DNA of 64,000 nt from Escherichia coli (GTDB lineage: Bacteria; Pseudomonadota; Gammaproteobacteria; Enterobacterales; Enterobacteriaceae). How positions within the stretch are numbered: position 1 is the stretch's first letter; every line of letters begins with the position of its first letter. Where the stretch lies: NCBI GenBank assembly GCA_025336685.1, contig GCA_025336685.1_4717.1. One strand, written 5' to 3'. A model generated the notes under the pieces. The model saw only the letters and a program-made list of their open reading frames with translations. It had not been told where the DNA came from and ran no database searches. A program made the translations under genes and the position numbers. Shown one piece after another: positions 2,146-21,739 of this stretch.

Positions 2146-4758
2146 TTATACGTCCGGCGTAAAATCAAAAGGAACGTCCGTACGAATGATATCATAACGT
2201 TTTCCTAAGAAATAGAACTCTTCGGGAACCAGACCGGGAATAATGCTATCGCCGATGAACTGTGGGTATGCCCAGATGTACTGAGTGAGTCCTTCGAACA
2301 TATCCAGGTTATTTGCGTGGTTACCCATGATACGTTTCCAGAGTTCGCGTTTATACGGTGTTTTGACATCGAACCCATAAAGCGGTGCGAGGTCTTCGCC
2401 AGGAACAAACCCCAGGTAATAGTGGATCTGACTAACCGGGAACCCAAGCGTATCTCGCGGAATGGTGATCGCTTGCTCGGCCTTGGTGACATGCGTCTCA
2501 ATAATCCAGTCGTAGCACTCCGAATAGAACCGATCGAATTTCTCTGGATTATACCACGCTTTGGGAAGATTCAGTTTCTCCGTGAACGCGTTCGACATGA
2601 TCGTCGGCAAGAACGGAAGAACGCCGGTTTTGATCTGCGTGTATTTCGATTTTACCCGATTGACTAGATTCCAGCAACTGTATCCTAATTGATCGTTGCA
2701 GAACTCAACGTAGAGATCGTAATCCCCACCCGATAATGGATTATTAATATCGCCGATGTCTGCCGCATATTTGTTGGGGTATCGGTTATTGAAAGCCAGT
2801 TTGGTTTGGTAATCGTAAATGCACGGTTTATTGTTCTTCGTGTTAATCCACCACCAGGGTTCACCCACCTGCACACAAATGTCTTGGACATGCGGGTAGA
2901 TGATATCAGCAAACGCGGTTAACACATCCCCTAACCACGCCATCGCGTGTTGGTTGCATGGCGACAACAACCAAGACGGCGGCGTATATCCGGTTGCTGC
3001 TATGTTTCCTTCCCAATCCTGCTGCGCCCACTCGAACGGGCATGCCGTGCTCATCAATTCGTAACTTAAACTGATTGTAACAGAGAAATGGTGTTTTGCA
3101 GCGTATGCGGCGAAAGCTTCATGCCATGCGATACAGGGTGGGTTGAGTACATCTGTGGTGTTCACCAGTAACTTACTCGCACTTGGTGTCCAGACAGTAT
3201 CGTAGAAATGCGACATTCCAACATAGTGCACTAATTCATCTTGATATCCCGCATAAACCAGGTTCTCAAATACGCGTTCCGGCGTGATGTTGTAATGGTC
3301 GTCATAAGCGGTTATCGCACGAAGCTCGTGTGGTGTACATTGGTGACGATTAACCGTCATTTCCTGATACACCCCATCAATAGGAAGAATCTCGAGGGTT
3401 AAACCGAGGTCGATCGGTGTTTCCAGGTAGGTCGTTTCTGTAGCACCTTCCTTATAATGTCGAGAACTCATGCTGAACATCAACGACGTGACCGATTCGA
3501 GTTCGATAGGTTCGTCAGCATAGAACCCCGCCATTGCGTCGTTGAAATCGATCGTTACGATTGCGCTTCTACCATCTTCAGAGACGTCGGTGGCGTATCG
3601 GGTTAATGAGATATACTGACGGCTATCGTCTTTGTGTACGACGGTTAAAACCGGCGGGTTTTCGGTATCCGCAAAGTTACGCTGATCGCCAGTAAACGTG
3701 ATCTTGGCTTTAAAGATCAAACCGAACAACGACGTCATGGGATCATACGCAACACAACCATGATCTAGCGTATCCGTTGTCCGCCATTCTATCCCTACCA
3801 ACCCGTTAGCGGTATGGCATCGCATATACGCATTAAGTGTCATGTCTTCACTGACAACCGCGAAGTTCTCTGTAGATTGACCGTTGATAATCCAATACAT
3901 CGGTTGCCAGAGGTTACGCGTGCCTTTTGCGTAGCGGTAGGTTGGTGCGCCTTTAGGGTTGCCGTTATTGAGATGGAATACAGCCGTACCTTGGTAATGA
4001 TCGTTCGTGTTAATCGGAACACTGTACGCGTCGCCGAGGTCCGTACGTTCGACCTTCGTGACAGTTGCGTTTTCAAACAGCCCACGTAGTGTAGGAAGAC
4101 CAATGTCATCAGGCGCGTTTTCTCGGCGAATCGCGTCCGCGATGCGGTGGGCTAGGGCGGGGTAAATGGTCTCACCCTGCTGTAGGTTTGCAAGACCTAC
4201 AAAGCGATCGGGGTTGATACCAGCAATCAATAACTCGACATCGCCCTTCGTTCTATCGTCATGGAGGTATTTCAGTCCAGTAAGATCAAGATGTTGAATT
4301 AACGACAACAGATTGTACTTACGGTTTTCAACAGTCAGTACAAGATCACCTGCCCAAACCAAACTTCCCTCATCCGCCGTTACTCTAACGGATTGGCGGC
4401 CTGTGGTAGACGTTGTTGTCGTTTTATTTAATTGTCCTTGTAGGAAGTCGGTTGCGAGGTCAAAGGCAACGCCGTAACGGTCAGCGACCGCCTGCATGAT
4501 TTCACGTAACTGGGTATCTTCTTCAATGATGATCTTGACAGGTATTCCCAAGAACGCCTTGGCGAGGTCTCGCTTAACCATCGAGACGAATACGGATTTG
4601 TAATATCGGCCTCCATCTTTCCCTTTAAAAAGAATGGAGGTTGTTTCGGGTGACGATAGAACACGTGCAAATTCAACATCGTCGAAAGTAAGAGAAAGTC
4701 CGTTTTTCTCGTTGGTTAATCTTAGTATTTCATTTTGCGCGGTTTCATGTAACTTCAT
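2146..4758 (-). CDS. tail spike/fibre-like receptor-binding protein (870 aa) with shared N-terminal anchor domain
   Basis: N-terminal ~170 aa (KRDLAKAFLGIPVKI...VWAGDL) paralogous to four other proteins in the window; large distal domain of unknown fold; TGAGG SD. Confidence 0.55.
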   Translation of the reverse strand: MKLHETAQNEILRLTNEKNGLSLTFDDVEFARVLSSPETTSILFKGKDGGRYYKSVFVSMVKRDLAKAFLGIPVKIIIEEDTQLREIMQAVADRYGVAFDLATDFLQGQLNKTTTTSTTGRQSVRVTADEGSLVWAGDLVLTVENRKYNLLSLIQHLDLTGLKYLHDDRTKGDVELLIAGINPDRFVGLANLQQGETIYPALAHRIADAIRRENAPDDIGLPTLRGLFENATVTKVERTDLGDAYSVPINTNDHYQGTAVFHLNNGNPKGAPTYRYAKGTRNLWQPMYWIINGQSTENFAVVSEDMTLNAYMRCHTANGLVGIEWRTTDTLDHGCVAYDPMTSLFGLIFKAKITFTGDQRNFADTENPPVLTVVHKDDSRQYISLTRYATDVSEDGRSAIVTIDFNDAMAGFYADEPIELESVTSLMFSMSSRHYKEGATETTYLETPIDLGLTLEILPIDGVYQEMTVNRHQCTPHELRAITAYDDHYNITPERVFENLVYAGYQDELVHYVGMSHFYDTVWTPSASKLLVNTTDVLNPPCIAWHEAFAAYAAKHHFSVTISLSYELMSTACPFEWAQQDWEGNIAATGYTPPSWLLSPCNQHAMAWLGDVLTAFADIIYPHVQDICVQVGEPWWWINTKNNKPCIYDYQTKLAFNNRYPNKYAADIGDINNPLSGGDYDLYVEFCNDQLGYSCWNLVNRVKSKYTQIKTGVLPFLPTIMSNAFTEKLNLPKAWYNPEKFDRFYSECYDWIIETHVTKAEQAITIPRDTLGFPVSQIHYYLGFVPGEDLAPLYGFDVKTPYKRELWKRIMGNHANNLDMFEGLTQYIWAYPQFIGDSIIPGLVPEEFYFLGKRYDIIRTDVPFDFTPDV

Positions 4759-4780: not shown

Positions 4781-5422
4781 TTAGATGTACTGCTTACCGC
4801 CCACGAAGGAAGTTAGCCAGTTCCCACTGACAAGCTGTGATACCCAGCCAGGCACTGCCCTGCCATTCTGGCTCATGACGTTACCACACCAGCCAGGGAA
4901 TCCGGGACGGATATAATAGAAAGTTAAATTGTAGAGATGGCAATTCCATACCGCAACGTTATGTTTACCAGAAACCGCTTTAAAGACAAACGCAACGGGT
5001 AAAGGCGACGATAACAATTCAGTCACAGGAACGGCTGACCAGTTTGCGTTCGCGTTCCATGGTTGCCAGGTATGGCTACGCGAGTCGCAAAATACGTTAC
5101 CGTTGTTACCGCGCCCACCAGCATGCCACCACAGCGACGGACTCATGTTCTTAAGTGAGGTAAATTGCTGTGGTGGAATATTAGGAATAATAACAGGGTT
5201 GGTACCTTGCCCATGTTTCTTTTCTTTTGCGTTTACATACCCACTTATCGATTCGAGGTATTTGACACCAGGATAATTGTTCTGGACTTGTGTCGCAATA
5301 TCACGGACATCAAACGTCCAGCAGATCATGGTGTTGTAGTAAGCATCGGTGTTGTCGTACCAAGCGTTACCATCTTGTAAACGTGCGCCACTATTCGGTG
5401 TTTTATCTGTGCTTATAGCCAT
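4781..5422 (-). CDS. hypothetical tail-module protein (213 aa) with conserved C-terminal module
   Basis: C-terminal ~45 aa (RPGFPGWxGNVMSQNGRAVPGWVSQLVSGNWLTSFVGGKQY) identical to the next gene; AGGA SD. Confidence 0.5.
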   Translation of the reverse strand: MAISTDKTPNSGARLQDGNAWYDNTDAYYNTMICWTFDVRDIATQVQNNYPGVKYLESISGYVNAKEKKHGQGTNPVIIPNIPPQQFTSLKNMSPSLWWHAGGRGNNGNVFCDSRSHTWQPWNANANWSAVPVTELLSSPLPVAFVFKAVSGKHNVAVWNCHLYNLTFYYIRPGFPGWCGNVMSQNGRAVPGWVSQLVSGNWLTSFVGGKQYI

Positions 5423-5528: not shown

Positions 5529-6194
5529 TTAAATTGATGTTAGATACTGCTTACCTCCGACAAACGATGTCAACCAGTTCCCACTGACGAGCTGTGATAC
5601 CCAGCCAGGCACTGCCCTACCGTTCTGGCTCATCACATTACCCGCCCATCCCGGAAAACCAGGTCGGAAAATATATACTTGAATATGTGTTAAAGCGTTA
5701 TCATTACCTCCACCAACAGCAACATTACGACGTCCGGATGATGGGAAATATTCTTTTAAGAACAGGGGATCGTTTGCCAATAAAGAAGCGGGCCAAGGAT
5801 TAGCGGATGCGTCAACATCGAATTCGGTCCATCGCCATTTGCGTCCGGTATCGAACCAGGTTGACGTACCACCGCCACGCACCGCAAGATTGCGTGCATC
5901 ACGGGCACTGTATATTGATTCGATGTTTCGCCACCCACCTTTTGCGGCGTTTGCCGCATAGCAAATCGCATTACCACCATTCTTCTTTTCGTAAACGGTT
6001 CGTTTGATATGAACACGGTCGATAAACGCTTCACCGTATTTGTTGACGAGTGTTTGCGCGATATCACGAAGATCGTGCATATGAAAGGCGATGTCTTCGT
6101 TGTGGAACCACGTTGTCGGGTTCCAAACGGTGCCGTTTGGTTCGGCACACATCGATCGGATATTGTTGCGTTGATTAATCGCGATAAAGCCCAT
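5529..6194 (-). CDS. hypothetical tail-module protein (about 221 aa), paralog of 4781..5422
   Basis: Same C-terminal module with different N-terminal region; start chosen at internal ATG 6192-6194 with GAGG SD (ORF track extends to 6257 through the terminator). Confidence 0.5.
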   Translation of the reverse strand: MGFIAINQRNNIRSMCAEPNGTVWNPTTWFHNEDIAFHMHDLRDIAQTLVNKYGEAFIDRVHIKRTVYEKKNGGNAICYAANAAKGGWRNIESIYSARDARNLAVRGGGTSTWFDTGRKWRWTEFDVDASANPWPASLLANDPLFLKEYFPSSGRRNVAVGGGNDNALTHIQVYIFRPGFPGWAGNVMSQNGRAVPGWVSQLVSGNWLTSFVGGKQYLTSI

Positions 6195-6246
6195 GGTCCA
6201 CCTCGTTCCTGTTCTCGAAGGAAATTTCATACGATGACGCCATAAC

Positions 6247-6303
6247 AGCTCCCCCATCCTCCCAACCCGTAAGGGAAGGGAGGATGTAAGGGAAGGAGGA
6301 GCT
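6247..6303 (-). terminator. nested GC-rich hairpin terminator
   Basis: Inner stem CATCCTCCC/GGGAGGATG (6255-6263/6278-6286) with loop AACCCGTAAGGGAA, enclosed by AGCTCC/GGAGCT; downstream of the lipoprotein gene. Confidence 0.5.
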
Positions 6304-6309
6304 ATTTAA

Positions 6310-6813
6310 TTACTGGCTGACAACCTCAACGGAACTGGGATCGGCGATCAGCGCACGGTCGGTAGAACAATTGAAGAAGACCATGCCAACACCATCACCG
6401 TTCGAGTTCAGGGTTGAACTTACGTAAGACAATGTTGGTTTATTCATACGGTAGAAGCGTTCGTTGGTGGTGGTATTGAACCCCAGATCAACGTAGTCTT
6501 TCACCGTGGTGTACAACTGTGTGGACTCGAAAACGGTTACCGGAGAGTCAACGGTAAACTGACTACCTTCGTCCACTACCAGAACTTTATCGTTCCAGAT
6601 TTCAGTGGTTGAGAACTTCGGTTTCCAGTGTTCGAATTCCTGGGTTGCTCCCCAGCAGGAATACACAGCGAGATCGCTGTTCTTCTCAACAGGTTTTAAC
6701 CCCACCAGTTGTGTCAGGCCTTTATCCAGATTCGGTAAGCCTTCCAGTGTAGCACACCCACCCAGAGAAAGTACCATCAACATACCGAGAATAATCGCGC
6801 AAAGTTTCTTCAT
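6310..6813 (-). CDS. putative lipoprotein (167 aa)
   Basis: N-terminal MKKLCAIILGMLMVLSLGGC: signal peptide with lipobox-like LGGC; AAGGA SD. Confidence 0.55.
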   Translation of the reverse strand: MKKLCAIILGMLMVLSLGGCATLEGLPNLDKGLTQLVGLKPVEKNSDLAVYSCWGATQEFEHWKPKFSTTEIWNDKVLVVDEGSQFTVDSPVTVFESTQLYTTVKDYVDLGFNTTTNERFYRMNKPTLSYVSSTLNSNGDGVGMVFFNCSTDRALIADPSSVEVVSQ

Positions 6814-6857
6814 CGTCGGATTTCCTTATGTGTTAACGGAAGTGATTTCCATAGTAA

Positions 6858-7273
6858 TTACACAGTTTTAGGAAATTCCGGCCAATCGATATTTGGCGCG
6901 GCGTCGGTATCGATAGCCGTCACCTCGTCAATGTAATCCAAAACAGCATTAAGTTGGGCTGTTTCTTCCGGAGTCAGTTTTCGCCCGGCCCGTAATTTTA
7001 ACTGAATAAGATCAATGGAAGCCAGCGCAGAGTCAATCAGAGATTTTTTCATCTGTTCTGCCTCGGCGACGAGATCTTCGTGTTGCCGCTCGGGTTCCGG
7101 AGGTGCGGTAAACTCACCATTTGAGTATAACCAACCTATTCCAGGCGACACAGCTCCCGTATCGCTAATGCTGACCAACTGTTGATTGTCAGATACATCG
7201 AGCTCTGCTTCGCCATCGTAAACAATCGTGTTTACTACCACCCCATTTTCAATAACAGCGTATGATGTACTCA
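6858..7273 (-). CDS. tail fibre assembly protein (chaperone)
   Basis: Lies immediately after the long fibre gene; start ATG overlaps the fibre stop (ATGTAATGAGT); C-terminal region resembles phage Tfa chaperones. Confidence 0.55.
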
Positions 7274-10200
7274 TTACATAAACTCCTCGATGATGCAAAT
7301 CCCGTCAGCGCCACGCCCGCCACGCATAACGGTTCCAGTGTAACCGTTATCGTAAGCGCCGCCGCCCGAACCTCGTGCGAGGCCGTTTGACCCACCGCCA
7401 ACAGCTGCGCGACCACCGCCACCCCAATATGACGCACCCCCACCACCACATACAGGAAATGCGCCAGCCTGACCGTCATCACCATCACCACCTGAAATGC
7501 GTATATCCCCGGTACTAGGTACACCACCACCCCCACCGCCAGTGTTTGTGACAGTTGTTTTTCCTGCGCCTTGCCCACCGGGAGCAGTCAGCAGGGATGC
7601 AAATTTACTATCCCCGCCCCTGTTTCCAACTGTTGCCCCGGAACCACCAGTGCCACCAGAACCAATTACAACAGAATAACTAGTAGCCGCTACCGTTATA
7701 ACCGAAATTACTGTTGCCCCGGCCCCACCGCCAGCACCAAAAAACGTTTCGCTGTTGGAAAAAGCCTGGCAACCACCACCGCCGCCTCCACCACCGGTTA
7801 ATATTACTCTAATCCGTTTTGTTCCTTGTGTTGGGGTGTACGTCCCTGACGATGTGAAAACACGCATGTTCAGTAAACGTCCGACATATCCACTAGAATC
7901 GGCTAAACCAAGATCTTTAGCTGCTAACGTGATATTAGCTGTGCCATCGAAAGGTTTACCGTTAATCGTGCGTGCCGTCTGCAGCTTCGTGGCCGTTGCT
8001 GCGTTTCCTGACGTATTCTGGTTTCCCGCGGCGTTAACACCTGGTAGATTGATGTTCGCACTACCGTCGAAAGACACCCCACCAATGGTGCGGGCTGTCT
8101 TCAGTTTTGTCGCCGTGGCGGCATTACCGGTCGTGTCTTGGTTACCGGTGGTGTTTACCCCAGGTAGGTTGATATTGGCTGTTCCGTTAAATGAAACACC
8201 ACCAATCGTCCTTGCTGTTTGCAACTTCGTTGCGGATGCCGCATTCCCCGTGGTGTTTTGGTTACCTGTTGCATTCACGCCTGGGATGCTATCCTTAGAT
8301 GTGTAGATCTGTGCCCATTCCGACCAGTTCGAATCGGCCGCATCACGACGTGAACGTAGGTAAGCTGGAGCGTGTGCGCCTGAGGTACCTGACCACCCAA
8401 TGAGGATTTCACCTTCACCGACCGATGAAGCCCCTTTAAGATGAATGATGTTACCATAAGCGGTGGGATATCCGTTATTGTACGCTTCATACATCTGGAT
8501 GCCCGCATTGCTGCCCTGAGCCGTGTTAGCTAAGGCCGTAACACGACCTTTGGAAGCGAGAGCGTTAATACTGAAGCTAATATCCTTAGTACCGTCAAAG
8601 GCGACCCCATTAATCTTCCGTGCTGTTTGGAGTTTCGTAGCAGTAGCCGCATTACCAGAGGTACTCTGATTACCTGCTTTGTTCACGCCCGGTAAATCAA
8701 TGTTGGCTGTTCCATCAAAGGACACACCCCCTATGGTTCTCGCTGTCTGGAGTTTTGTTGCTGAACCAGCGTTTCCAGAAGTGCTTTGATTACCTGCCGC
8801 GTTGACACCCGGTAGGTCAATGCTAGCAGAACCATCAAAAGAAACTCCACCGATCGTGATCGGTGTTTTCAATTTCGTGGCTGTCGCAGCATTACCCGTC
8901 GTATTCTGATTGCCAGCAGCATTAACACCAGGTAATGCGATATCGGTCGTACCATCGAACGCAACACCACCGACTTTACGGGCGGTCTGTAGCTTGGTCG
9001 CTGTAGCCGCGTTGCCGCTGGTATTTTGCGTGCCTGCTTTATTTACGCCAGGCAAATCAATGTTCGCAGTACCATCAAAAGAAACACCCCCGATGGTTCT
9101 CGCGGTCTCAAGTTTGGTTGCGCTTCCTGCGTTTCCGCTGGTGCTTTGATTTCCCGCTGCATCAACACCTGGTAGATTGATGCTGGCCGAACCATCGAAA
9201 CTCACACCACCGATAGTAACAGCGGTTTTCAACTTCGTCGCCGTTGCTGCGTTACCGGTTGTATTTTGATTGCCTGTCGCATTAACGCCCGGTAATGCAA
9301 TATCCGCTGTTCCGTCAAAGGCAACGCCACCGATTCTACGTGCAGTTTGTAGCTTGGTTGCACTAGCAGCGTTACCGCTGGTATTCTGGGTGCCAGCTTT
9401 GTTAACACCGGGGAGATCGATATTAGCAGAACCATCGAAGCTGACGCCACCTATCGTTCTTGCAGTATCGAGTTTAGCTGCTGTGGCTGCATTATTACCC
9501 ACTTTCAGCCAATCATCCCATGGACCATCCTGGCCGTTCCATGATGCCGTTAAACTACGTACGTAAATATTGCCGGTACGTACAGTGTAACGTTGCGTTC
9601 CACCGAATTGTCCGGCAGGGAGCACTTCAAGGTAACCTGCAGCATTTGCTTCAGGGAAATTGTGGGCGACGTCCGCGTTCGTTGATACTGGTTTAGACCA
9701 AATACCCACAGACACTTCAACCGGACCGTAAGTATTCAGATTTGCGTCGGTGGGGAGCTGTCCTCGAAAACGTTGGAATTGTGTCGCCGATAACCCCAAC
9801 GTTGTTTGCATGCTTTCAATGCTGGATTGCTGAAGTAACGTCCGTGCTGTCGATGTAATCACGGTAAGCGCAACTTTATTAACACCGGTGAAATACGGGA
9901 GTTTGTCTGCTGATGTCGCTAAACCTGAAAAGGCGGTCAGTAATGCGTTAAGGGGCTGCTTCCCAGCTAACGCATTTGTTACCGTCGTTGCGAAATTAGG
10001 ATCGCTTCCTATAGCTCGAGCCAGCTTATTAAGCGTATTTAGCGTCGCTGGTGACGAGTCGATCAGCGCCGTGATCGCACGCATCACAAATTCCGTGTTG
10101 GCTATCTGTCGACTGCTATTGTTAACTGCTGCGGTGGGCGCTGCTGGCGTACCAGTGAATACAGGGCTATTAAGATCCGCCTTGAGGGCGATGAGACGTT

Positions 10201-11149
10201 TAAGCGCTTCAACATCGACTTTCAGGTTTTCCCATCCGATGAGAGAACCACCACTGTTGGCATGGTAACGGTTGTACCAGAAGTCACCGTTAACGCCTAA
10301 AAAGAATATTCCCTTCTCTTCGTTTTGTGGGCCGGAACTATTTCGTGATGCGCTGATATATTTGATTTTAATAATACCGTTAAACACCACTCCTGGGATT
10401 ATTTCGCTGCTTCCAGCTAACTGTGATACTTGGTAAATCCCCGGGGTCGCAGCTTTAACCCATGTTAAGAATTCTGTTACTCCGGCGTTACCACTGAAAT
10501 TCTTAACGTCGGTAAGTATCGCACCATAACCGAACATACCGGGCAGAGCAACTCGTCCGTTGGTACGGTCACGAATATTTGATGCGATTACAGGTAGCTG
10601 TTTACGAACATTATTAACCGCCTTAGGTGTGGCCGATTTTGTCTCATCGTCGCTATCGATGGCGTTGCTCAGGATGGTCAGCCCTCGCTTAGCAGTAGTT
10701 GCATCAGGAAGAAATGCGTTATCCAACACCTTAAGCTGTATTGCACTCGTATTACTAACAACGACATGCATCTGACAGTTAAGAACGCTGGTTGCGCCTT
10801 CGGTAGGCATAGGCTTATATCTTTCTGGTGCACTGCAGACGGCAATCAGAACACCCTTGTCGTCGTACAGACCGATCTCACGTACCCAGAACCCACCTTG
10901 ACTGGCAGGAATAATACCCTCAACGACAATCCTGGTTGTACTATCGCCATCCGCATGGATATTAGAAACTTCCCCACGATAAACTTCGTGAACAAGCGCT
11001 GTTTGGCTGGCGGTCGGGGTTGGTGTCGAGCCGTTACCATCACCAACGGCAAAGTGTGTGATTTTTAGTTTCTCACCGTCGGGAAGTAACGCAGCGGTGA
11101 TACGTTCTGCTCCTTTATCGGTAACTACCGTTTTATATGCTGTACTCAT
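7274..11149 (-). CDS. long tail fibre protein (about 1291 aa from internal Met; ORF track 1318 aa)
   Basis: About 12 degenerate ~34-aa repeats (TARTIGGVSFDGTANIDLPGVNxAGNQNTSGNAATATKLQ) typical of phage fibres; Gly-rich C-terminal domain; likely start MSTAYKTVV at 11147-11149. Confidence 0.8.
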   Translation of the reverse strand: MSTAYKTVVTDKGAERITAALLPDGEKLKITHFAVGDGNGSTPTPTASQTALVHEVYRGEVSNIHADGDSTTRIVVEGIIPASQGGFWVREIGLYDDKGVLIAVCSAPERYKPMPTEGATSVLNCQMHVVVSNTSAIQLKVLDNAFLPDATTAKRGLTILSNAIDSDDETKSATPKAVNNVRKQLPVIASNIRDRTNGRVALPGMFGYGAILTDVKNFSGNAGVTEFLTWVKAATPGIYQVSQLAGSSEIIPGVVFNGIIKIKYISASRNSSGPQNEEKGIFFLGVNGDFWYNRYHANSGGSLIGWENLKVDVEALKRLIALKADLNSPVFTGTPAAPTAAVNNSSRQIANTEFVMRAITALIDSSPATLNTLNKLARAIGSDPNFATTVTNALAGKQPLNALLTAFSGLATSADKLPYFTGVNKVALTVITSTARTLLQQSSIESMQTTLGLSATQFQRFRGQLPTDANLNTYGPVEVSVGIWSKPVSTNADVAHNFPEANAAGYLEVLPAGQFGGTQRYTVRTGNIYVRSLTASWNGQDGPWDDWLKVGNNAATAAKLDTARTIGGVSFDGSANIDLPGVNKAGTQNTSGNAASATKLQTARRIGGVAFDGTADIALPGVNATGNQNTTGNAATATKLKTAVTIGGVSFDGSASINLPGVDAAGNQSTSGNAGSATKLETARTIGGVSFDGTANIDLPGVNKAGTQNTSGNAATATKLQTARKVGGVAFDGTTDIALPGVNAAGNQNTTGNAATATKLKTPITIGGVSFDGSASIDLPGVNAAGNQSTSGNAGSATKLQTARTIGGVSFDGTANIDLPGVNKAGNQSTSGNAATATKLQTARKINGVAFDGTKDISFSINALASKGRVTALANTAQGSNAGIQMYEAYNNGYPTAYGNIIHLKGASSVGEGEILIGWSGTSGAHAPAYLRSRRDAADSNWSEWAQIYTSKDSIPGVNATGNQNTTGNAASATKLQTARTIGGVSFNGTANINLPGVNTTGNQDTTGNAATATKLKTARTIGGVSFDGSANINLPGVNAAGNQNTSGNAATATKLQTARTINGKPFDGTANITLAAKDLGLADSSGYVGRLLNMRVFTSSGTYTPTQGTKRIRVILTGGGGGGGGCQAFSNSETFFGAGGGAGATVISVITVAATSYSVVIGSGGTGGSGATVGNRGGDSKFASLLTAPGGQGAGKTTVTNTGGGGGGVPSTGDIRISGGDGDDGQAGAFPVCGGGGASYWGGGGRAAVGGGSNGLARGSGGGAYDNGYTGTVMRGGRGADGICIIEEFM
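7905..8285 (-). repeat. coding tandem repeats, block B (about 3 units) inside the long fibre gene
   Basis: Same ~34-aa unit after a ~100-aa non-repeat spacer. Confidence 0.55.
8575..9485 (-). repeat. coding tandem repeats, block A (about 9 units of ~102 bp) inside the long fibre gene
   Basis: Repeated GGVSFDG...LPGVN...TGNAATATKL units read from the translation; DNA copies are diverged. Confidence 0.6.
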
Positions 11150-11156: not shown

Positions 11157-11684
11157 TTATCCTGGATAAATAGTGATGATATCACCAATGACCGTTGTGG
11201 CACCGGCGTAAAGATGAGCCGGAGATACATCGTGTTGGTTTGTCACGGTAAGATCCAATCGACCACGCCAAACCATGGAGGTATTCGCGATGGGGATAGA
11301 AATCTTTTTGGATATATCGTCACGAAAATCAATAACAGTGGCAAGGGTAACTGTATCAAAGTCAACGTCGGGGTCAAAGACGAACCCGTATTGATCTGAA
11401 ATCGCCCGAATAATCGCGTGTATAGTTGTTGTCTTAACAGACTCTAAAACGATTTTTATTGGTATTCCTAGAAATGCCTTCGCAATATCGCGTCGAGCGT
11501 AAACGATAAAACTTTCACCGTTCCACCTTGTTCCTTCATTTGCTGTGACGATCACTTTTGCCCTGTTAGCACCAGAACTTCCATCCAAGACTAATGTAAG
11601 ATCGGAGCTGTTGAATACGCTACTGTTACGTCTGTTTATCAACGACGTCAGTTCGTCTTTCCATGGCGGGTAAAGTGAACACAT
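11157..11684 (-). CDS. free-standing anchor-domain protein (about 175 aa) upstream of the long fibre
   Basis: Paralog of the N-terminal domain of the 870/590/503-aa proteins (YARRDIAKAFLGIPIKI); start MCSLYPPWKDEL with GGAGGAGGG SD. Confidence 0.5.
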   Translation of the reverse strand: MCSLYPPWKDELTSLINRRNSSVFNSSDLTLVLDGSSGANRAKVIVTANEGTRWNGESFIVYARRDIAKAFLGIPIKIVLESVKTTTIHAIIRAISDQYGFVFDPDVDFDTVTLATVIDFRDDISKKISIPIANTSMVWRGRLDLTVTNQHDVSPAHLYAGATTVIGDIITIYPG

Positions 11685-11797
11685 ATGTGCACCCTCCTCC
11701 AACATAACCAGATTAAATATATATTTCTTAAACGTGGGACACGATTCGAGATAAACGTTAACGGTCTTAACGACCGCATAAAATTCCGCGCATATTA

Positions 11798-11841: not shown

Positions 11842-13596
11842 TTATGCTGCTACATATCCAGGCCAACGTTCTCTTGGCCAGTTTGTTGCGCCCTGTCCAA
11901 CGTTGTCCTTACCAGAAATTACGTTACTTACATCCCATCCACTCAGATCCTGATTGAACGCGGTGTTTTCGCGCATCATGAGATCGATCTTACGTAGTGA
12001 ACGGGTATTCCAGCCGGAAATGTCTTGGTTGAATGCTGTATTGTAGGCAAACATGTTAGACACGCTTTGTAACTTCGATGTGTTCCAACCACTGATGTCG
12101 CTATTGAACGACATGCTCGAGAACATGCTGCTCGCATCAACAAGGCTGTCGGTTTTCCAATTAACCAGTTTATCACCATCAAGCGCAGCGCTGCTGCTGA
12201 ACATAAAACTCATGTCGTTAACTTTGGACACATCCCATTTATCCAACCCGTTACCCACGAACGCGGGACAGGACGAGAACATATAACTCATATTAGTAAC
12301 CCGACTCACATTCCATTTACTGAAGTCGAGGTTAAGTTTCTGACACCCTAAGAAGGTTTTAGACATGTTGGTGATACGACTAACATCCCACTCTTGGATG
12401 TTGGGGTCGTTAAGTGTCGTTAAATAGTTGAACAATGTCGCTAACGACGTCCATTTCTGTGGAATCTGGTTTGGTACCGTACGAAGCGATGCGAGGTTGT
12501 TGGTTGACGGAGAGCAGAACATGCCGTTATCCCAATTTACGATCTCCGTAATTTTGGACCCTTTGATCGTCTGAGTGACGTTACCATCTTTCACCATACC
12601 TGTAGCGACGATGGTATATTCACCGGTGTCCGCATAATCGTGGGAGTAGGAGTTGTTGCTTGAGGTCTCCGTTACTTTATTCCCATCACCCCAATCGATA
12701 TTGACCTTATCCCATCCACCTAGATAGAACTGTACTTTGCCTCCGGTGGCTTTTAGGATGTATTTACCCCCATTGTCTGTATAATAACAGACGACCATCG
12801 AACCGTACAGATTACCTATCTGCCAATCATCCTTTTGCGTTATTGCGATTTGCGCCGCACCACGCTGTACGAAGAGTACCGTACGATTCTCGGCAGTCTG
12901 TAATGTGGTTATTGCCTGAGCCTTATCGTCCTCGCTAATTTCGCCAGACGCCACCAAAGCGCTTAACATCCTTTCGAAGTATTCGATCGGTAACTCGGTT
13001 CCAACAGACTTATCAACAGACGATACGGCAAGATCACCCAATGCTGCGGTGGTAGCCAACGCCAATGAACCCTTGGTCATATCTGTTTCTTGGATGTAAT
13101 GCAGTCCTGTAAGCTGGTACGCTTGAATAATAGTAATCAGGTTCAGCGTATCGTTAACGACCTGTACCTGTAAATTCCCGGACCATACATAACTGCTTTC
13201 AGCAATCGGTAGTTCGACCGACTGAATACCCGATGTTTCAAAGGTGATCTTCTTATTAAGATCGGTTTCCAGGAAATCAACCGCGAGGTCGAAATTCATG
13301 CCGTACTTTTCAGCGATGGAATCTACGATATTCTTGAAAGCAACATCGGTGCTTACGATAAAACGTAACGGAATTCCTGTAAACGCTTTAGCGATATCTC
13401 GACGAACATACGTAAGCGATTGTTCGAAGAAATAGGGACTGTTATCTCCAGGCTTGATGGTTACCTGACACGCTTCAGGATATTCAGCTGGGATGAACGA
13501 TTCGAATTTAACATCGGATTCCTTCAACGAAAGCTTGTTATTTCGGTTCACTAACGCCAGAAGATCGGCTTTCCATCCGGGGTAAACTGTAGACAT
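11842..13596 (-). CDS. receptor-binding protein: anchor domain fused to DUF285/BspA-like repeat domain
   Basis: N-terminal anchor paralog; C-terminal repeats WNVSRVTNMSYMFSSC / WDVSKVNDMSFMFSS / WNTSKLQSVSNMF match the DUF285 repeat signature; start MSTVYPGW with GGAG SD. Confidence 0.6.
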   Translation of the reverse strand: MSTVYPGWKADLLALVNRNNKLSLKESDVKFESFIPAEYPEACQVTIKPGDNSPYFFEQSLTYVRRDIAKAFTGIPLRFIVSTDVAFKNIVDSIAEKYGMNFDLAVDFLETDLNKKITFETSGIQSVELPIAESSYVWSGNLQVQVVNDTLNLITIIQAYQLTGLHYIQETDMTKGSLALATTAALGDLAVSSVDKSVGTELPIEYFERMLSALVASGEISEDDKAQAITTLQTAENRTVLFVQRGAAQIAITQKDDWQIGNLYGSMVVCYYTDNGGKYILKATGGKVQFYLGGWDKVNIDWGDGNKVTETSSNNSYSHDYADTGEYTIVATGMVKDGNVTQTIKGSKITEIVNWDNGMFCSPSTNNLASLRTVPNQIPQKWTSLATLFNYLTTLNDPNIQEWDVSRITNMSKTFLGCQKLNLDFSKWNVSRVTNMSYMFSSCPAFVGNGLDKWDVSKVNDMSFMFSSSAALDGDKLVNWKTDSLVDASSMFSSMSFNSDISGWNTSKLQSVSNMFAYNTAFNQDISGWNTRSLRKIDLMMRENTAFNQDLSGWDVSNVISGKDNVGQGATNWPRERWPGYVAA

Positions 13597-13614
13597 AAGC
13601 ACTCCAAAGTTCAT

Positions 13615-13636: not shown

Positions 13637-16600
13637 TTAAATTGTTGGTTTAATATCGCGTAATAGGGCGATATAATAGCCTAATCCTCGGAGGATCTCC
13701 CCGCTCCAGAAACCAAAATACATTCCGTCTCTGCCGAGATTAGCACTATCTGGTGCAGGACTCCACCCACCATTCATTGCGTCATCAACGGTGTAACGGT
13801 TTATGTAGTTCTCAACGATCTCGTTATAAACATTAACAGCAACAGAATAGCCTTTATCGTTGGGATGTTCGTACAACATCGCTAACGACGCTCCGGCTAA
13901 CCATAATCCCGCCATATGACCAGTAAAGTCGTTCGGGATAAAGGTAGGGGGTTTATCCATCGGAAAATCCGTAGGAGACCGATAGGCGTTTTCCTGCTGA
14001 TACGTAAACAAGAAATCGATCCAATGACTGATGTAAGTGGATAACTTCTCAGGGACAGCCAAACCACGATCAAGCAGTCCTGCATAAAGCCTCACCGCTG
14101 AAAAGAAAGCCCTCGGCTGATAACCAGACCATGCTGTCTGATCGCCGAAGTGGTACATCGTAAAATCATTAACTTTTGATCCGCTTGGCGCATCCCAACG
14201 ATCCCACACGTACGCACTCGCACCCGGCCCTAAAACCCCGAATTTCTGATAATACCACTGTTGTGAGTCATACCAGAAATTCACAACATTCTGGATCATA
14301 AGGTCACGTCGTTCAGCCGGTACGTCCATATCCAGGAAGACCCATGGATGTTGGTAGCCGGGATAAGGCTGCCCACGCCAACTGTCGAACGTCGGTGCGT
14401 TAGGGATATAGTTGTTCGAGAACGGAATAATACCCGGAGTATAAGGCAACGGATCGAGACGCTGGTTGACAATCGTGCAATCACCAACCCGTAATGTTCC
14501 CTCCGCCTCAAAGGTTGCTTTTAACGTAAACAGCATGGTATATCCGTCATCCGTGGTGTAAGTTGACGGCGGATTGTTGATGGCGTAAAGCTTAAATACC
14601 CCTTCAGCGATATCGCTGTCATCGGGCAAGAACAAAATTTCAGTTGAGCCATCACCCCACACAGGTGCAGAAGGTTTAGGGTCAGTATCCGTGTGGTTCG
14701 GTTGATACCCCGAGAGCGTCCATCCGGTAGCCGAAAGCGTCAACGTATTTCTTGATGTGGTGGTCGGTAGCATCTGCCACCATCGCCAACCATTCGCATC
14801 TTCTACACGAACGTTGAAGTCAATCGACGCGAAATAACTGACCTGTCTTACGATCTGTTTTGCTGTTGGATTGAATTCAAATTGTCCGCCTGCCGCAGTA
14901 AGCTGCGCTTTTAAGAACAACCCATCCCAGGAATCTTCCGCCGCTTCGCTGAATTCTGTTGTGATTGCGACATCGTCTTTCCAGCCGACTTTATCGGCCG
15001 ATATCAGCACAGAACCCGTAACAGCATCACCGGTTGGTGTTGAAGCTTCATCAACCGCATCAGCAGGAATCAACGAGCCTATTTTGAAATCCCATCCTTT
15101 CGGTTCAACGCTGGAAGGTAATACCAGCTTATACGTTTTGGCTTTCGCTTCGGTTTTGTCCAAAGAAAGCGATAACGAGATCTCAACCGGAATTGCAAGG
15201 CCTGTCGTATCTTTACCTCCGCAGGTTACACGAAGAATCGATTCGCGATTTACGCGGAACGGAATGGCCTGCTGTTCGAGGTAAATTTGTGCTGAAGATG
15301 CTTGAATCACGATCCAGCCATCGGTATCACGCGTGATTGTGAACGGCGCTTTCGATGGGTATGTATACGTGTAAGCGATACCGTCGGTATCGTAACGATT
15401 GGTTCCTTTTACCTGACGGAAGAACTTATCGTTGGCGTCGATACGGGTATATTCTTCAATTGTAAACAAAGATGCCTTGTACGCTTTCTGATAGCGCTCC
15501 TGCTGCGTTAAACGGTATAAGGTGTAGGCTGATTCACAAAACCACTGTTCGGCGTCTGATGCGTTTCCCATGTAGTCTCTGGTGACTGGCACCTGGATCG
15601 GTCGGTTATGCTGACATTCATTCGTTTTAATAAGGTATCCGCCATATTCAACAGGAACACGGGGTGCCCATGCAACCAAGTAAGAACCGTTGACGGATTT
15701 ATCTTTGAGTACGATGGTGCCCACCTCATCGTCGGTACACGCTGCAAGATCGTCCCCGTCAGCACTTACGTAACGTTTTGTGCGTAACGCAACTTTCTCG
15801 ATAGGAAACACCGTACCCTTTGTATTCCAGTCAATTGTCCCATCATCATTGGTTTTGAACACGTCCGCGTTCAAATTCTGCCAGCCGAGTTTACCCTCAT
15901 AGACCTTAACAACAAGATCCGCGTATTCCCCGAACGTTGGTGCACCATGTGCTATTTTTCCAATACCGTTGGTGAATGTAACCACTGTGTCATGGAAACC
16001 ACCATGTGTTGGGTAATCGTCTTTTGCAAGAGGATAATGGGCCAACACAGGCTGTTTACCATTAACAATCCAGTTAGCGATCCAGCGTGCCGGTGTATCC
16101 GGTGGTTCAAGGCCTGCATAGAACGCTTTTATATACGCATCGAACGATGATTCTGCTAATGTAAGATAGTGCGCTTTAAGTTTGGTATCATCCGTTGTAT
16201 GACTGAATATACCAGCACCCAGAATTAACAACGACTGTCCTTCTGTTGTCGCGTCACCGTCTGGTTGTGCTTCTTGTCGTGTTGCTGCGATGAAATGGCG
16301 ATTGTTTACCATTACCCCGCTTTCATTTAACACGTAATGATCGGTTTCTGGGTTGGTAAACGTTCCTGTATTTCGGGTTAAGAAGCTTGCATGGCCATAA
16401 CCAACGAAATTAACCGGCGACGCTGTAATCATCCATTTACCGATAAGTTGGGCGACGTCGTTATAACGCTCCGATGCGGTGATTTGTTTCACGTACCAAT
16501 CTTTACGGTTGAATGTCCAAAGCAGGAAGTAATACGTGGCATTGATTTCCATTACCGGAAACGTCGGTGTTAACGGCTCCAGCGTTAAGTAGTTGCTCCA

Positions 16601-17233: not shown

Positions 17234-17246
17234 TATTTACTCCGCC

Positions 17247-18077
17247 TTAATCGTAACTGAAATAAAGTTTGCTGCTGACGCCGCTATCGGAATGAGGTTT
17301 TAATACCAGAACAGAGCTTCCGAACGACGGAAGTATCGGAACATTTAAATCGTTTGCGTCGGCAACTTTTCCGTTATAAACGACACTGGCTGTTGTGATA
17401 AGTTCCCAAGCTAAGGCATAACTCATTGAAATCAGTGAAGAGGCTAAACGGAATGCGTTGTATCCTTCAGGAGAATCTCCAACCGACAATGAACGTATCG
17501 CATCTTGCGGTGGTAAATTTAGCTTGATGCCGTAGGTGCTAAACGTGTGGAAATCCCCTTGTTTACTATCTTCTGGATAGTAAGAGGTTAGCGGTTCTCG
17601 CACCGTAATCAGTTCGCTAATATCGGTATTTACCGCTTTTCGTGCGAGGAATTGAAACGTACCGTACCACGATGCTGATGCATCAGAACGAATAGGAACA
17701 GTTATGGTTTTCTCGCCGCTTTCAAATTCAATCTGTGTCGCTAACGTTGAAGAATCAAAGATCGTTAAATCGATCTTCAACCCATACTTCTTAAACAGCT
17801 GCGTTAAGCAGTCTGCTATAGTCGTCATATCAGCAACGACAATAAAAGGTTGGTGTTTGATAAAGAGCTTATTAATGTCTCGACGTTGAAGATAAACCTG
17901 CACGGGGTCTTCGATATAGTAAGTCGATTGTGATGTGGGGACTATAGAAAGGCGTAACCGACCTGATGCACCATACCAGGCTGGCGTTAGCGTAATGTCT
18001 GACGGGGATAATGGGTGCTGGAGGTCGGTGTTTATTTTAGATAACACTTCCTCTTGCCATGATGCTTCAGGATACAT
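17247..18077 (-). CDS. free-standing anchor-domain protein (276 aa)
   Basis: Diverged paralog of the anchor domain (YLQRRDINKLF...); TGAGG SD; first gene after the 18163-18190 terminator. Confidence 0.45.
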   Translation of the reverse strand: MYPEASWQEEVLSKINTDLQHPLSPSDITLTPAWYGASGRLRLSIVPTSQSTYYIEDPVQVYLQRRDINKLFIKHQPFIVVADMTTIADCLTQLFKKYGLKIDLTIFDSSTLATQIEFESGEKTITVPIRSDASASWYGTFQFLARKAVNTDISELITVREPLTSYYPEDSKQGDFHTFSTYGIKLNLPPQDAIRSLSVGDSPEGYNAFRLASSLISMSYALAWELITTASVVYNGKVADANDLNVPILPSFGSSVLVLKPHSDSGVSSKLYFSYD

Positions 18078-18162
18078 GCTGACCTCATAGATGATCGTTG
18101 ATAGGAAAGAGACCTAATTCATACCATGGGAACCTCAAAAAAAAAACAAAAAATAGGAAAAC

Positions 18163-18190
18163 GGTGCTCATCCCTAAAAGGATGAGCACC
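18163..18190 (-). terminator. rho-independent terminator
   Basis: Perfect 11-bp stem GGTGCTCATCC/GGATGAGCACC, loop CTAAAA, followed on the minus strand by a long U-tract (plus-strand A-run 18137-18160). Confidence 0.8.
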
Positions 18191-18211
18191 GCGTACCGTT
18201 ATATCGAATGA

Positions 18212-21108: not shown

Positions 21109-21134
21109 AACAGTCGCTCTCGTTTCAGGGGGAG

Positions 21135-21721: not shown

Positions 21722-21739
21722 TGTATTGACCTTATTCAA

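What the first reader, a model, noticed from the sequence alone, without database searches (positions are those of the whole stretch)
6310..6813. Lipoprotein gene directly downstream of the fibre and its chaperone: superinfection-exclusion candidate
This is the only lipoprotein-like gene in the tail module (lipobox-like LSLGGC). It sits right after the long fibre and assembly-chaperone genes and has its own terminator. In several phages a lipoprotein encoded beside the receptor-binding gene masks the receptor after infection.
Basis: partly seen in the sequence, partly recalled or inferred. Interest (0 to 1): 0.45.

Follow-up and report, generated by a model that had tools for sequence, protein, structure and literature searches.

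The report
Abundant outer-membrane lipoprotein of jumbo phage
The gene is real and encodes an exported, lipid-anchored outer-membrane protein conserved in Goslar- and SPN3US-like jumbo phages, made late and in very large amounts; blocking re-infection is a plausible role, but it does not look like a mask for the receptor of the neighbouring tail fibre.

Summary
Window 6310-6813 (minus strand) is the 95%-identical orthologue of Escherichia jumbo phage Goslar gp088. It has a textbook lipoprotein signal (MKKLCAIILGMLMVLSLGG|C, Ala at +2, so outer membrane). It is the only such gene in the window and in the whole Goslar genome.

All 27 homologues found keep the lipobox Cys and two further Cys. All that could be traced to a source come from enterobacterial jumbo phages with genomes of about 240 kb. 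AlphaFold predicts a flexible tether plus an 8-stranded beta-barrel with no close structural or sequence relative.

The gene carries a late-type TATG promoter motif and is followed by a hairpin that is conserved across the family.

Published mass spectrometry puts Goslar gp088 at about 740 copies per purified virion, with no function assigned.

The gene always sits among host-recognition genes (DUF7941, fibres, chaperones). It does not co-vary with the fibre tip, and the known receptors in the family differ (LPS core for Goslar, flagella for SPN3US).

An Llp/Cor-style mask of this fibre's receptor is therefore not supported. A broader exclusion or progeny-protection role is my best guess (about 0.3). 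Rivals are an outer-membrane lysis factor, a cell-wall hydrolase inhibitor and a true virion-associated protein.

The parts
6310..6813 (-). Lipoprotein gene (167 aa), orthologue of Goslar gp088 (YP_009820773.1), member of phrog_9559
   Evidence: ORF; 95% aa identity to Goslar gp088; phrog_9559 E=3.9e-21
6754..6813 (-). Signal peptidase II signal peptide (residues 1-19) plus the lipid-modified Cys20. The next residue is Ala, which predicts outer-membrane sorting
   Evidence: Lipobox rule met; G19 and C20 invariant in 27/27 homologues and no Asp at +2 in any of them
6364..6669 (-). Predicted 8-stranded beta-barrel domain (residues 49-150). The invariant Cys53 and Cys149 lie on the first and last strands, so a disulfide is likely. 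Residues 21-45 form a low-confidence tether
   Evidence: AlphaFold2 model: core pLDDT about 81-92 per 10-residue block, 75.8 overall; invariant columns
6850..6853 (-). TATG motif 37-40 nt upstream of the ATG; candidate late (non-virion RNA polymerase) promoter and start site
   Evidence: Position; a TATG lies about 40-60 nt upstream of the start codon in 9 of 10 family loci; TATGG also precedes Goslar MCP, gp23, gp30 and gp58; the phiKZ late promoter is T-3ATG+1 (PMC7598289); chance about 8% per 31-nt window
6823..6827 (-). Shine-Dalgarno-like AAGGA, 9 nt before the ATG
   Evidence: Sequence
6244..6306 (-). Nested GC-rich stem-loop directly after the stop codon; probable terminator or 3'-end stabiliser, without a canonical T-run
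   Evidence: Folding (z about -3); hairpin at the same position in the other loci; not found by the consensus scan
6858..7274 (-). Tail fibre assembly chaperone (Caudo_TAP). The true ATG at 7274 overlaps the fibre stop codon (TAATG)
   Evidence: Pfam PF02413 E=1.1e-20; alignment to Goslar gp089 starts at residue 9; junction sequence
7274..11149 (-). Long tail fibre, P1 gpS-like, with internal repeats and a Gly-rich C-terminal domain. The probable start is Met28 of the listed ORF
   Evidence: Pfam Phage_tail_fib, Phage_fiber_2 and Gly_rich_2; 79% identity to Goslar gp090 from residue 28
11157..11705 (-). Small DUF7941 protein (Goslar gp091 homologue) upstream of the fibre
   Evidence: Pfam PF25613 E=4.2e-15
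2146..4758 (-). DUF7941 protein with NCTSP N-terminal and TIM-barrel domains (Goslar gp086 homologue), downstream in the same cluster
   Evidence: Pfam; described as a host-recognition candidate in 10.64898/2026.04.21.720040
5529..6194 (-). 221-aa gene immediately downstream. It is absent from Goslar and is a paralogue of the next gene (4781-5422, gp087 homologue)
   Evidence: 93% identical to the L006 255-aa protein from Met22 onward; 39% identical to gp087

Best explanation
SHOWN. The gene encodes a bacterial-type lipoprotein precursor. The sequence predicts Sec export, diacylglyceryl modification of Cys20, cleavage by signal peptidase II, and sorting by Lol to the outer membrane, because residue +2 is Ala and not Asp. 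The mature 148-residue acidic protein (pI 4.5) has a flexible tether of about 25 residues and an 8-stranded beta-barrel. The barrel is probably locked by a Cys53-Cys149 disulfide, which fits a periplasmic location.

The family is small. Every member traced to a genome or long contig comes from an enterobacterial chimallivirus: Goslar-like, SPN3US/Seoul-like, or one of several Erwinia genera. The gene looks like an independent late transcription unit, with a TATG start motif about 40 nt upstream and a hairpin right after the stop codon. Its Goslar orthologue is one of the most abundant phage proteins in purified virion preparations. In every locus examined the gene lies among host-recognition genes (DUF7941 filament proteins, fibres, DUF4376 or Caudo_TAP chaperones).

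INFERRED. The protein accumulates in the outer membrane of the infected cell late in infection, at structural-protein levels. There it conditions the envelope, and after lysis the membrane debris, so that virions of this phage lineage do not adsorb or eject unproductively. That is superinfection exclusion in the progeny-protection sense proposed for T5 Llp. Its target would be an envelope component conserved across E. coli, Salmonella and Erwinia, not the strain-specific receptor of the adjacent long fibre. Its presence in virion preparations would then reflect outer-membrane fragments that stay attached to LPS-binding virions.

The confidence given (0.3) is for this inferred function. That the gene encodes a conserved, exported outer-membrane lipoprotein I hold at about 0.9.
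For: Lipoprotein signal; NCBIfam hits only to the signal-peptide regions of other lipoproteins.

Family size and range: 26 proteins with E<=2.5e-39 and then nothing in 5.8 billion clusters; 18 hits among 1.84 billion representatives; 55 phage records, all Erwinia, Salmonella, Escherichia, Proteus or Enterobacteria jumbo phages.

Fold. The independent BFVD models of the Kwan, Huxley and SEGD1 homologues match it.

Late unit: TATG upstream in 9 of 10 loci, which form six independent groups (p about 3e-7). The same motif precedes Goslar structural genes, whereas chmA carries an early-type TATATTAC. The phiKZ late promoter is T-3ATG+1 (PMC7598289). Hairpins follow the stop codon. In L008 the gene is flanked by terminator-like hairpins on both sides.

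Abundance: Goslar gp088 had 77.8% coverage, 20 peptides and an estimated 491-1158 copies per virion. It is the fifth most abundant unmodelled protein in Table S4, and fourth among those without a predicted function (10.64898/2026.04.21.720040). Identity of gp088 with this gene.

Neighbourhood.

Precedent: lipoproteins or accessory proteins next to RBP genes act as exclusion factors (plus my own knowledge of T5 Llp and Cor).
Against: No experiment links this family to adsorption or plating.

Late expression is the wrong timing for protecting an ongoing infection from the start; T5 llp is an early gene (my own knowledge).

Goslar needs LPS core and no protein receptor was found, and SPN3US uses flagella, so no target for a periplasmic mask is identified.

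The very high copy number is more than is needed to block a low-copy receptor.

There is no similarity to any known exclusion protein.

The virion-preparation signal could mean something quite different. The same preparation also contained chimallin and PhuZ as contaminants, but at levels 4-6 times lower.

The AlphaFold model is only moderately reliable: one of the five models reached a mean pLDDT of 75.8 and the others 53-60.
Confidence: 0.3

Rival explanations
1. Llp/Cor-type mask of the receptor recognised by the adjacent long fibre. The lipoprotein would bind the periplasmic face of an outer-membrane protein receptor and lock it in a form the fibre or tip cannot use.
For: The gene sits directly after the fibre and chaperone in the window, in Goslar and in L006. 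It is an outer-membrane lipoprotein. There is precedent in siphoviruses (own knowledge of T5 Llp and Cor).
Against: The lipoprotein stays 84% identical while the fibre C-terminus and chaperone family are exchanged (L006). It is 49% identical next to unrelated upstream proteins (L005, L008). It is not next to a long fibre in SPN3US-like or Erwinia phages. The Goslar receptor is LPS core and the SPN3US receptor is flagella. It shows no homology or fold match to Llp or Cor, and the mature protein is 148 aa against roughly 60-70 aa.
Confidence: 0.08
2. Outer-membrane step of lysis. The protein would be a non-canonical o-spanin-like or outer-membrane-destabilising lipoprotein needed for release of the large virions.
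For: It is the only lipoprotein in the Goslar genome. No spanin family was detected among the five Goslar proteins with an N-terminal membrane helix or the two small multi-TM proteins tested. It is a late, abundant unit of its own. In SPN3US-like and Erwinia phages the gene lies 2-4 genes from the GH108 endolysin and a small one-TM protein.
Against: No locus has an adjacent or embedded type-II membrane protein. Three of the five Goslar proteins with an N-terminal membrane helix were tested by tblastn and have no homologue outside Goslar: gp094, gp182 and gp247. gp002 and gp003 were not tested. The mature protein is a folded 120-residue barrel, not a short proline-rich peptide, and it has no C-terminal TM helix of the u-spanin kind. 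In the Goslar clade the gene lies far from either cell-wall hydrolase gene. Another chimallivirus, PCH45, is reported to have an ordinary Rz-like spanin.
Confidence: 0.15
3. Periplasmic inhibitor of peptidoglycan hydrolases, in the manner of MliC, PliC, PhiA or T4 Spackle. Anchored under the outer membrane, it would neutralise the tail lysin of further adsorbing virions (protection from lysis from without) or restrain the phage's own secreted hydrolase.
Confidence: 0.12
4. A genuine virion-associated protein. After lysis, the lipidated protein would bind the peripheral DUF7941 filament cloud or the fibres and travel with the virion.
For: About 740 copies per virion after PEG and CsCl purification, 4-6 times more than the known contaminants chimallin and PhuZ. 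The gene is always next to DUF7941 genes, and in the SPN3US clade it is divergently paired with the small DUF7941 gene. That is the position Goslar gp23 occupies next to gp22.
Against: The signal peptide and lipobox are invariant, so the protein is made on the other side of the inner membrane from virion assembly. No density was assigned to it in the cryo-EM model. The SPN3US homologue gp159 is not mentioned in the SPN3US virion mass-spectrometry paper as held. Plate lysates are rich in outer-membrane debris, and Goslar binds LPS.
Confidence: 0.08

Closest known systems
T5 Llp and the Cor lipoproteins of T1, phi80 and N15 (and the Rtp accessory protein that binds the periplasmic face of LptD)
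   Same: A phage-encoded outer-membrane or periplasmic protein encoded within or beside the host-recognition genes. Plausible roles are exclusion of further infection and protection of progeny from debris.
   Different: No sequence or fold similarity. The mature protein is more than twice as long. The expression signals are late-type. There is no co-variation with the receptor-binding protein. The known receptors of family members are LPS core and flagella, not a TonB-dependent transporter or LptD.
Rz1-type o-spanins
   Same: An outer-membrane lipoprotein of a phage of Gram-negative hosts, probably expressed late, and the only lipoprotein in the genome.
   Different: No adjacent i-spanin gene in any locus, a large folded barrel instead of a short proline-rich chain, and placement among host-recognition genes.
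MliC/PliC/PhiA/ACP lysozyme-inhibitor barrels and T4 Spackle
   Different: No profile match and no MliC motif seen. The similarity is no better than to unrelated barrels.
phrog_9559 / Goslar gp088 / SPN3US gp159 / Erwinia phage 'Lipoprotein' entries in UniProt
   Same: This is the family itself. The window protein is 95% identical to Goslar gp088.
   Different: Nothing; the family has no assigned function. The 2026 Goslar structure preprint lists gp088 among abundant virion-associated proteins and does not mention its lipoprotein signal.

Membership tests
Bacterial lipoprotein precursors (signal peptidase II substrates) | Positively charged n-region, hydrophobic h-region and a lipobox [LVI][ASTVIG][GAS]C with the Cys within residues 15-35 | tested here: met
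   MKK + LCAIILGMLMVLS + LGG|C20; G19 and C20 invariant in 27/27 homologues
Bacterial lipoprotein precursors (signal peptidase II substrates) | Residue +2 is not Asp, which gives Lol-dependent transfer to the outer membrane in Enterobacteria | tested here: met
   Ala in the window protein; A, S, K, V, T or Q in the homologues, never Asp. The rule itself is established knowledge.
Bacterial lipoprotein precursors (signal peptidase II substrates) | Actual lipid modification and membrane localisation | not testable with these tools
   Needs globomycin or palmitate labelling and cell fractionation. The 77.84% mass-spectrometry coverage (130 of 167 residues) fits all tryptic peptides from D32 to K167 except FYR and MNK, which would leave the N-terminal 31 residues unseen. 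Another combination of peptides gives the same number.
phrog_9559 (Goslar gp088 family) | Profile match over the full length | tested here: met
   E=3.9e-21, residues 3-152; 95% identity to Goslar gp088
Llp/Cor-type receptor-masking lipoproteins | Sequence or fold relationship to Llp or Cor | tested here: not met
Llp/Cor-type receptor-masking lipoproteins | Encoded beside the receptor-binding protein and exchanged together with it | tested here: not met
   Adjacent in the window, Goslar and L006, but the lipoprotein is retained when the fibre tip and chaperone change. It is not next to a long fibre in L008, SPN3US, Kwan, pEa43, L009 or L010.
Llp/Cor-type receptor-masking lipoproteins | The phage uses an outer-membrane protein receptor that spans to the periplasm | tested here: inconclusive
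   Literature only: Goslar = LPS core with the protein receptor 'unknown', SPN3US = flagella. An essential outer-membrane protein would be missed by knockout screens.
Llp/Cor-type receptor-masking lipoproteins | Expression blocks adsorption or DNA entry | not testable with these tools
   Requires an experiment.
Two-component spanin, o-subunit (Rz1-like) | Gene adjacent to, overlapping or embedded in an i-spanin gene (type-II inner-membrane protein) | tested here: not met
   Neighbours in all three loci whose neighbours were translated lack an N-terminal TM helix. No spanin PHROG was found in the Goslar membrane proteins tested.
Two-component spanin, o-subunit (Rz1-like) | Short, proline-rich, largely unstructured mature polypeptide | tested here: not met
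   The mature protein is 148 aa with a predicted 8-stranded barrel at pLDDT about 81-92.
MliC/PliC lysozyme inhibitors | Match to the family profile | tested here: not met
   No Pfam hit in any of the 27 members at E<=10.
MliC/PliC lysozyme inhibitors | 8-stranded barrel fold superposable on family members | tested here: inconclusive
DUF2846 (annotation carried by the pEa_SNUABM_43 homologue) | Pfam PF11008 match | tested here: not met
   No such hit among the 27 members at E<=10.

The most novel reading that the evidence does not exclude
The roughly 740 copies per virion are real. A bacterial-type triacylated lipoprotein, matured in the periplasm, would be picked up at lysis by the DUF7941 filament cloud or the fibres and carried on the outside of chimallivirus virions. 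There its lipid anchor and barrel would take part in engaging the next host's outer membrane. That would be a tailed-phage virion carrying a lipid-anchored accessory protein acquired after assembly.
Probability: 0.07. Interest if true: 0.85.

Novelty: new variant of a known kind. Interest (0 to 1): 0.5.

Why it matters
Nucleus-forming jumbo phages are candidates for therapy, and how they recognise hosts and leave them is poorly understood. Three points make this gene worth following up.

- It is the only lipoprotein these phages encode, it is conserved across E. coli, Salmonella and Erwinia phages, and it is made at structural-protein levels.
- A recent structural study lists it among the most abundant 'virion-associated' proteins of unknown function and does not mention that it carries an export and lipidation signal. 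That either flags outer-membrane carry-over in such preparations or points to something unusual about the virion. One detergent-wash experiment would decide between the two.
- If it is an exclusion or progeny-protection factor, it is a new, non-homologous type that does not follow the 'one lipoprotein per receptor-binding protein' rule. It could also bear on why Goslar-like and Seoul-like phages are so often found persisting in bacterial isolates (10.1101/2024.12.31.630880).

Tried and rejected
- Domain and family searches of all 27 members (Pfam, NCBIfam, PADLOC) gave only signal-peptide-level hits.
- A profile search against PDB sequences gave only chance hits.
- Foldseek against the PDB found nothing below E=0.01. 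The afdb50 library was not available.
- The 'DUF2846' annotation of one homologue was not reproduced.
- I looked for a co-conserved membrane partner. The window 192-aa type-II protein and Goslar gp182 and gp247 have no homologue outside Goslar. Hydrolase_2 is widespread and not specific to this family.
- PHROG search of Goslar membrane proteins found no spanin or holin family.
- A 39-aa lipobox ORF out of frame inside Goslar gp152 was set aside as chance, because the permissive pattern gives dozens of such hits.
- For expression timing, Goslar RNA-seq exists but its per-gene table is not held. The SPN3US infection proteomics paper is not held.
- The SPN3US virion mass-spectrometry paper, as held, does not mention gp159, but its tables are incomplete, so this is weak.
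- The window segment has no match in complete E. coli genomes.
Full report
WHAT THE WINDOW IS. A 3.5 kb segment around the finding matches Escherichia jumbo phage vB_EcoM_Goslar (MK327938 / NC_048170, a nucleus-forming chimallivirus) at about 90% nucleotide identity. Gene order follows Goslar gp086-gp093. The ORF at 6310-6813 on the minus strand corresponds to Goslar gp088 (HOV27_gp088, YP_009820773.1, record 97923-98426) at 95% amino-acid identity.

CHECKING THE OBSERVATION. The ORF encodes 167 aa beginning MKKLCAIILGMLMVLSLGGCATLEG. I applied the PROSITE-type lipoprotein rule to every possible start of every ORF of at least 40 aa in the window. This was the only credible hit; the others are internal starts of large genes or out-of-frame ORFs. 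The same scan on the assembled 237,307-bp Goslar genome again left gp088 as the only annotated gene with a true lipoprotein signal.

The fibre and its chaperone are immediately upstream on the same strand. The fibre runs 7274-11149 and has Phage_tail_fib, Phage_fiber_2 and Gly_rich_2 domains. The chaperone (Caudo_TAP) runs 6858-7274, and its ATG overlaps the fibre stop codon as TAATG.

The consensus scan reports no terminator after the gene. Folding nevertheless shows a strong nested stem-loop at 6244-6306, starting 4 nt after the stop codon, with z about -3.

THE FAMILY. A search of 5.8 billion protein clusters found four close relatives (95, 84, 78 and 49% identity). A translated search of 50,697 phage records found 55 records. 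All were Erwinia, Salmonella, Escherichia, Proteus or 'Enterobacteria' jumbo phages of about 200-250 kb, at about 28-36% identity.

A profile search added more, giving 26 proteins with E<=2.5e-39 and nothing weaker. An exhaustive HMM search of 1.84 billion representatives gave only 18 hits. The family is therefore small. Every member that could be traced to a genome or long contig belongs to an enterobacterial relative of Goslar, SPN3US (gp159, SPN3US_0159) or several Erwinia phage genera.

In the 27-sequence alignment, the lipobox Gly and Cys and two further cysteines (C53 and C149) are invariant. Residue +2 is never Asp. This is strong evidence that export, lipidation and outer-membrane sorting are under selection. 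It also suggests the mature domain carries a disulfide, as expected in the periplasm.

Pfam, NCBIfam, PADLOC and PDB sequence searches gave no domain assignment. The only match is phrog_9559, of unknown function. The 'DUF2846' label on one GenBank homologue was not reproduced.

STRUCTURE. AlphaFold2 with the 27-sequence alignment gave one confident model (mean pLDDT 75.8; 81-92 per 10-residue block across residues 41-150) and four poorer ones. It shows the signal helix, a low-confidence tether (residues 21-45) and eight strands between residues 49 and 150.

In the viral structure library the model matches its own family (Kwan, Huxley, SEGD1). It matches small lipoproteins of other phages more weakly (DIBBI, Possum, Joad). 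The fold is therefore a generic small barrel and gives no function. Most strands are short and the disulfide is conserved, which argues for a soluble periplasmic barrel rather than a transmembrane one (inference).

GENOMIC CONTEXT. This is the most informative comparison.

- In contig L006 the lipoprotein is 84% identical. The fibre shares only its N-terminal 190 residues and one middle segment with the window fibre, and the chaperone is an unrelated DUF4376 protein.
- In L005 (49% identical) the upstream 1375-aa protein has no similarity to the window fibre, and there is no chaperone.
- In L008 (49% identical) the gene is flanked by two DUF7941 proteins, with no fibre at all.
- In SPN3US, Kwan, pEa_SNUABM_43, L009 and L010 the gene stands alone on the opposite strand. 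It is divergent from a small DUF7941 gene and lies two to four genes from a GH108 endolysin, a DUF1353 protein and a DUF4376 protein.

The constant neighbour is thus the DUF7941 family. A 2026 preprint describes DUF7941 proteins as filament-forming host-recognition proteins attached to the peripheral baseplate (10.64898/2026.04.21.720040). The long fibre is not the constant neighbour. None of the neighbouring genes has an N-terminal membrane helix.

TRANSCRIPTION SIGNALS. A GC-rich hairpin directly follows the stop codon in all loci. I folded it for the window, Goslar, L006, L005, L008, SPN3US and Kwan. The tail is a canonical U-tract in Kwan and L005 and is U-rich in L008 and SPN3US. In pEa43, L009 and L010 it is visible in the printed downstream sequences. 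In L008 a second such hairpin precedes the gene, which makes it monocistronic.

Upstream, a TATG lies about 40-60 nt before the start codon in 9 of 10 loci. In the window it is at 6853-6850. TATG is the only conserved element of phiKZ late promoters (T-3ATG+1) and is strictly required by the non-virion RNA polymerase (PMC7598289).

In Goslar the same TATGG precedes the major capsid protein, gp23, gp30 and gp58. The early gene chmA instead carries TATATTAC, which by my own knowledge resembles the phiKZ early-promoter consensus. TATG occurs at 0.0027 per nucleotide in Goslar. One in a given 31-nt window is therefore expected 8% of the time, and in all six independent groups of loci about 3e-7.

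I infer that the gene is an independent late unit. In the window and in Goslar it may also be read through from the fibre operon. This timing has not been checked against the published Goslar RNA-seq, because its per-gene table is not available to me.

ABUNDANCE. The Goslar structure preprint reports label-free mass spectrometry of PEG- and CsCl-purified virions. For gp088 (18.4 kDa) it gives 77.8% coverage, 20 peptides, 209 spectra and an estimated 491-1158 (median 737) copies per virion. That makes gp088 the fifth most abundant unmodelled protein in Table S4, and fourth among those the authors list as 'lacking a clearly predicted function'.

By comparison, the fibre chaperone gp089 is at about 52 copies and gp087 at about 19. 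The authors note that the preparation also contained chimallin (about 126) and PhuZ (about 171), which are not virion parts. The words lipoprotein, signal peptide, periplasm and outer membrane do not occur in the paper.

The 130 covered residues fit every tryptic peptide from D32 to K167 except FYR and MNK. That would leave the signal peptide and the lipidated N-terminal peptide unseen, although another combination gives the same number.

A protein matured in the periplasm cannot be built into virions that assemble in the cytoplasm. The simplest reading is therefore that a very highly expressed outer-membrane protein travels with membrane fragments. Those fragments may be held by virions whose receptor is LPS. 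This is an inference that a detergent wash would test.

RECEPTORS. Genome-wide screens list LPS core (GluII) as the Goslar receptor, with hits in galU, hldE, waaF and similar genes and no protein receptor (10.64898/2026.04.02.716166). SPN3US is reported to use flagella (PMC11428620). A family conserved across phages with such different primary receptors is unlikely to be a receptor-specific mask. An essential outer-membrane protein acting as a shared secondary receptor cannot be excluded.

MECHANISM. Shown by sequence and comparison: a lipoprotein precursor, predicted outer-membrane sorting, a tether plus a barrel that is probably disulfide-locked, its own late-type promoter motif and 3' hairpin, lineage-restricted conservation, and a constant place among host-recognition genes. 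Shown by others: very high abundance in virion preparations.

Inferred: it accumulates in the outer membrane late in infection and changes how the envelope, or the debris after lysis, interacts with virions of this lineage. I commit to exclusion in the progeny-protection sense as the most likely role, at about 0.3. This fits the placement, the membrane location and the stoichiometric abundance. It fits late timing better than classical exclusion does.

Rivals:
- An outer-membrane lysis factor (0.15). It is the sole lipoprotein in the genome, no spanin was detected and it lies near the endolysin in the SPN3US clade. Against this, there is no i-spanin partner and the shape is wrong.
- A hydrolase inhibitor of the MliC/PhiA/Spackle kind (0.12). 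The only support is weak fold similarity, and there is no profile match.
- A true virion-associated protein (0.08).

The remaining probability covers functions I have not thought of.

COMPARISON WITH KNOWN SYSTEMS. The protein would work like Llp, Cor or the Rtp factor only in the loosest sense. It fails the membership tests that could be run: homology, fold and co-variation with the receptor-binding protein. It shares lipidation with o-spanins but fails on gene arrangement and architecture. It is a member of phrog_9559 (the Goslar gp088 / SPN3US gp159 family), which has no described function.

NOVELTY AND SCORE. The gene and its 'Lipoprotein' label already exist in databases, and its abundance has just been published. 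Three things are added here:

- The abundant 'virion-associated' gp088 is an exported outer-membrane lipoprotein.
- The gene forms a conserved late transcription unit.
- Its constant partners are DUF7941 host-recognition genes rather than the fibre.

The last point removes the simple receptor-mask reading. I rate interest at 0.5: a clear, cheaply testable puzzle in a phage group of current interest, but with no functional evidence yet.

Noticed in passing
window 5529-6257 (true gene probably 5529-6194) and 4781-5422, minus strand: There are two paralogous genes directly downstream of the lipoprotein gene. The first (221 aa counted from Met22) is absent from Goslar but 93% identical to a protein in contig L006. 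The second is the gp087 homologue (95%). They are 39% identical overall but share an almost identical C-terminal stretch of about 45 aa (RPGFPGW.GNVMSQNGRAVPGWVSQLVSGNWLTSFVGGKQY), which suggests recent recombination or a shared attachment module. Neither has a Pfam or PHROG hit.
   Followed up: partly
window 11842-13614, minus strand: A 590-aa DUF7941 + DUF285 protein lies between the gp091 and gp092 homologues. It is absent from Goslar but present in L006 and L008, so the host-recognition cluster is mosaic between close relatives.
   Followed up: partly
L006 5575-9220 compared with window 6858-11149: A close relative has exchanged the distal fibre and swapped the Caudo_TAP chaperone for a DUF4376 chaperone, while keeping the fibre N-terminus and the lipoprotein. 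This is a clear case of tip-plus-chaperone cassette exchange.
   Followed up: yes
window 20054-22618, minus strand: A cluster of exported or membrane proteins: a Hydrolase_2 (SleB-like) cell-wall hydrolase with an N-terminal signal or SAR-like segment (20054-20602), a 67-aa protein with two TM helices (21135-21338, holin-like), and two proteins with cleavable-looking signal peptides (21740-22090 and 22127-22618). It is a possible lysis or envelope module, and no family assignment came from PHROGs for the Goslar counterparts of the small membrane proteins.
   Followed up: partly
window 18212-18790, minus strand: A 192-aa protein with a single N-terminal TM helix (Goslar gp094 homologue). In the phage collection it has no homologue outside Goslar, although same-sized genes occupy the same position in contigs L005, L006 and L008; their similarity was not tested.
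   Followed up: partly
Goslar record (L011-L015), whole genome: TATG is under-represented and strand-asymmetric in Goslar: 487 on the plus strand against 806 on the minus strand, with about 927 expected per strand for equal base use. It sits upstream of several structural genes. chmA is preceded by TATATTAC, which resembles the phiKZ early-promoter motif as I recall it.
   Followed up: partly
Goslar record 15826-18335 compared with SPN3US L002 6253-9594: The arrangement is syntenic. In Goslar, the DUF7941 gene gp22 is divergent from gp23 (also DUF7941) and is followed by the GH108 endolysin gp24. In SPN3US-like phages the lipoprotein gene occupies the gp23 position opposite the small DUF7941 gene. 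This suggests the lipoprotein gene moved within the host-recognition region in one of the lineages.
   Followed up: no
Goslar record 138485-138604, minus strand: A 39-aa ORF with a lipobox (MTLSRFFTVLMVASGC...) lies out of frame inside gp152. This recalls embedded Rz1 genes but is probably chance, because gp152 did not come up in the scan for membrane helices.
   Followed up: no
window 7274-11149, minus strand: The fibre contains many tandem copies of a motif of about 45 aa (…ATKL.TAR.IGGV.FDG.A.I.LPGVN.AGNQ.TSGNA…), seen in the translation and as multiple matched stretches in the PHROG hits.
   Followed up: no
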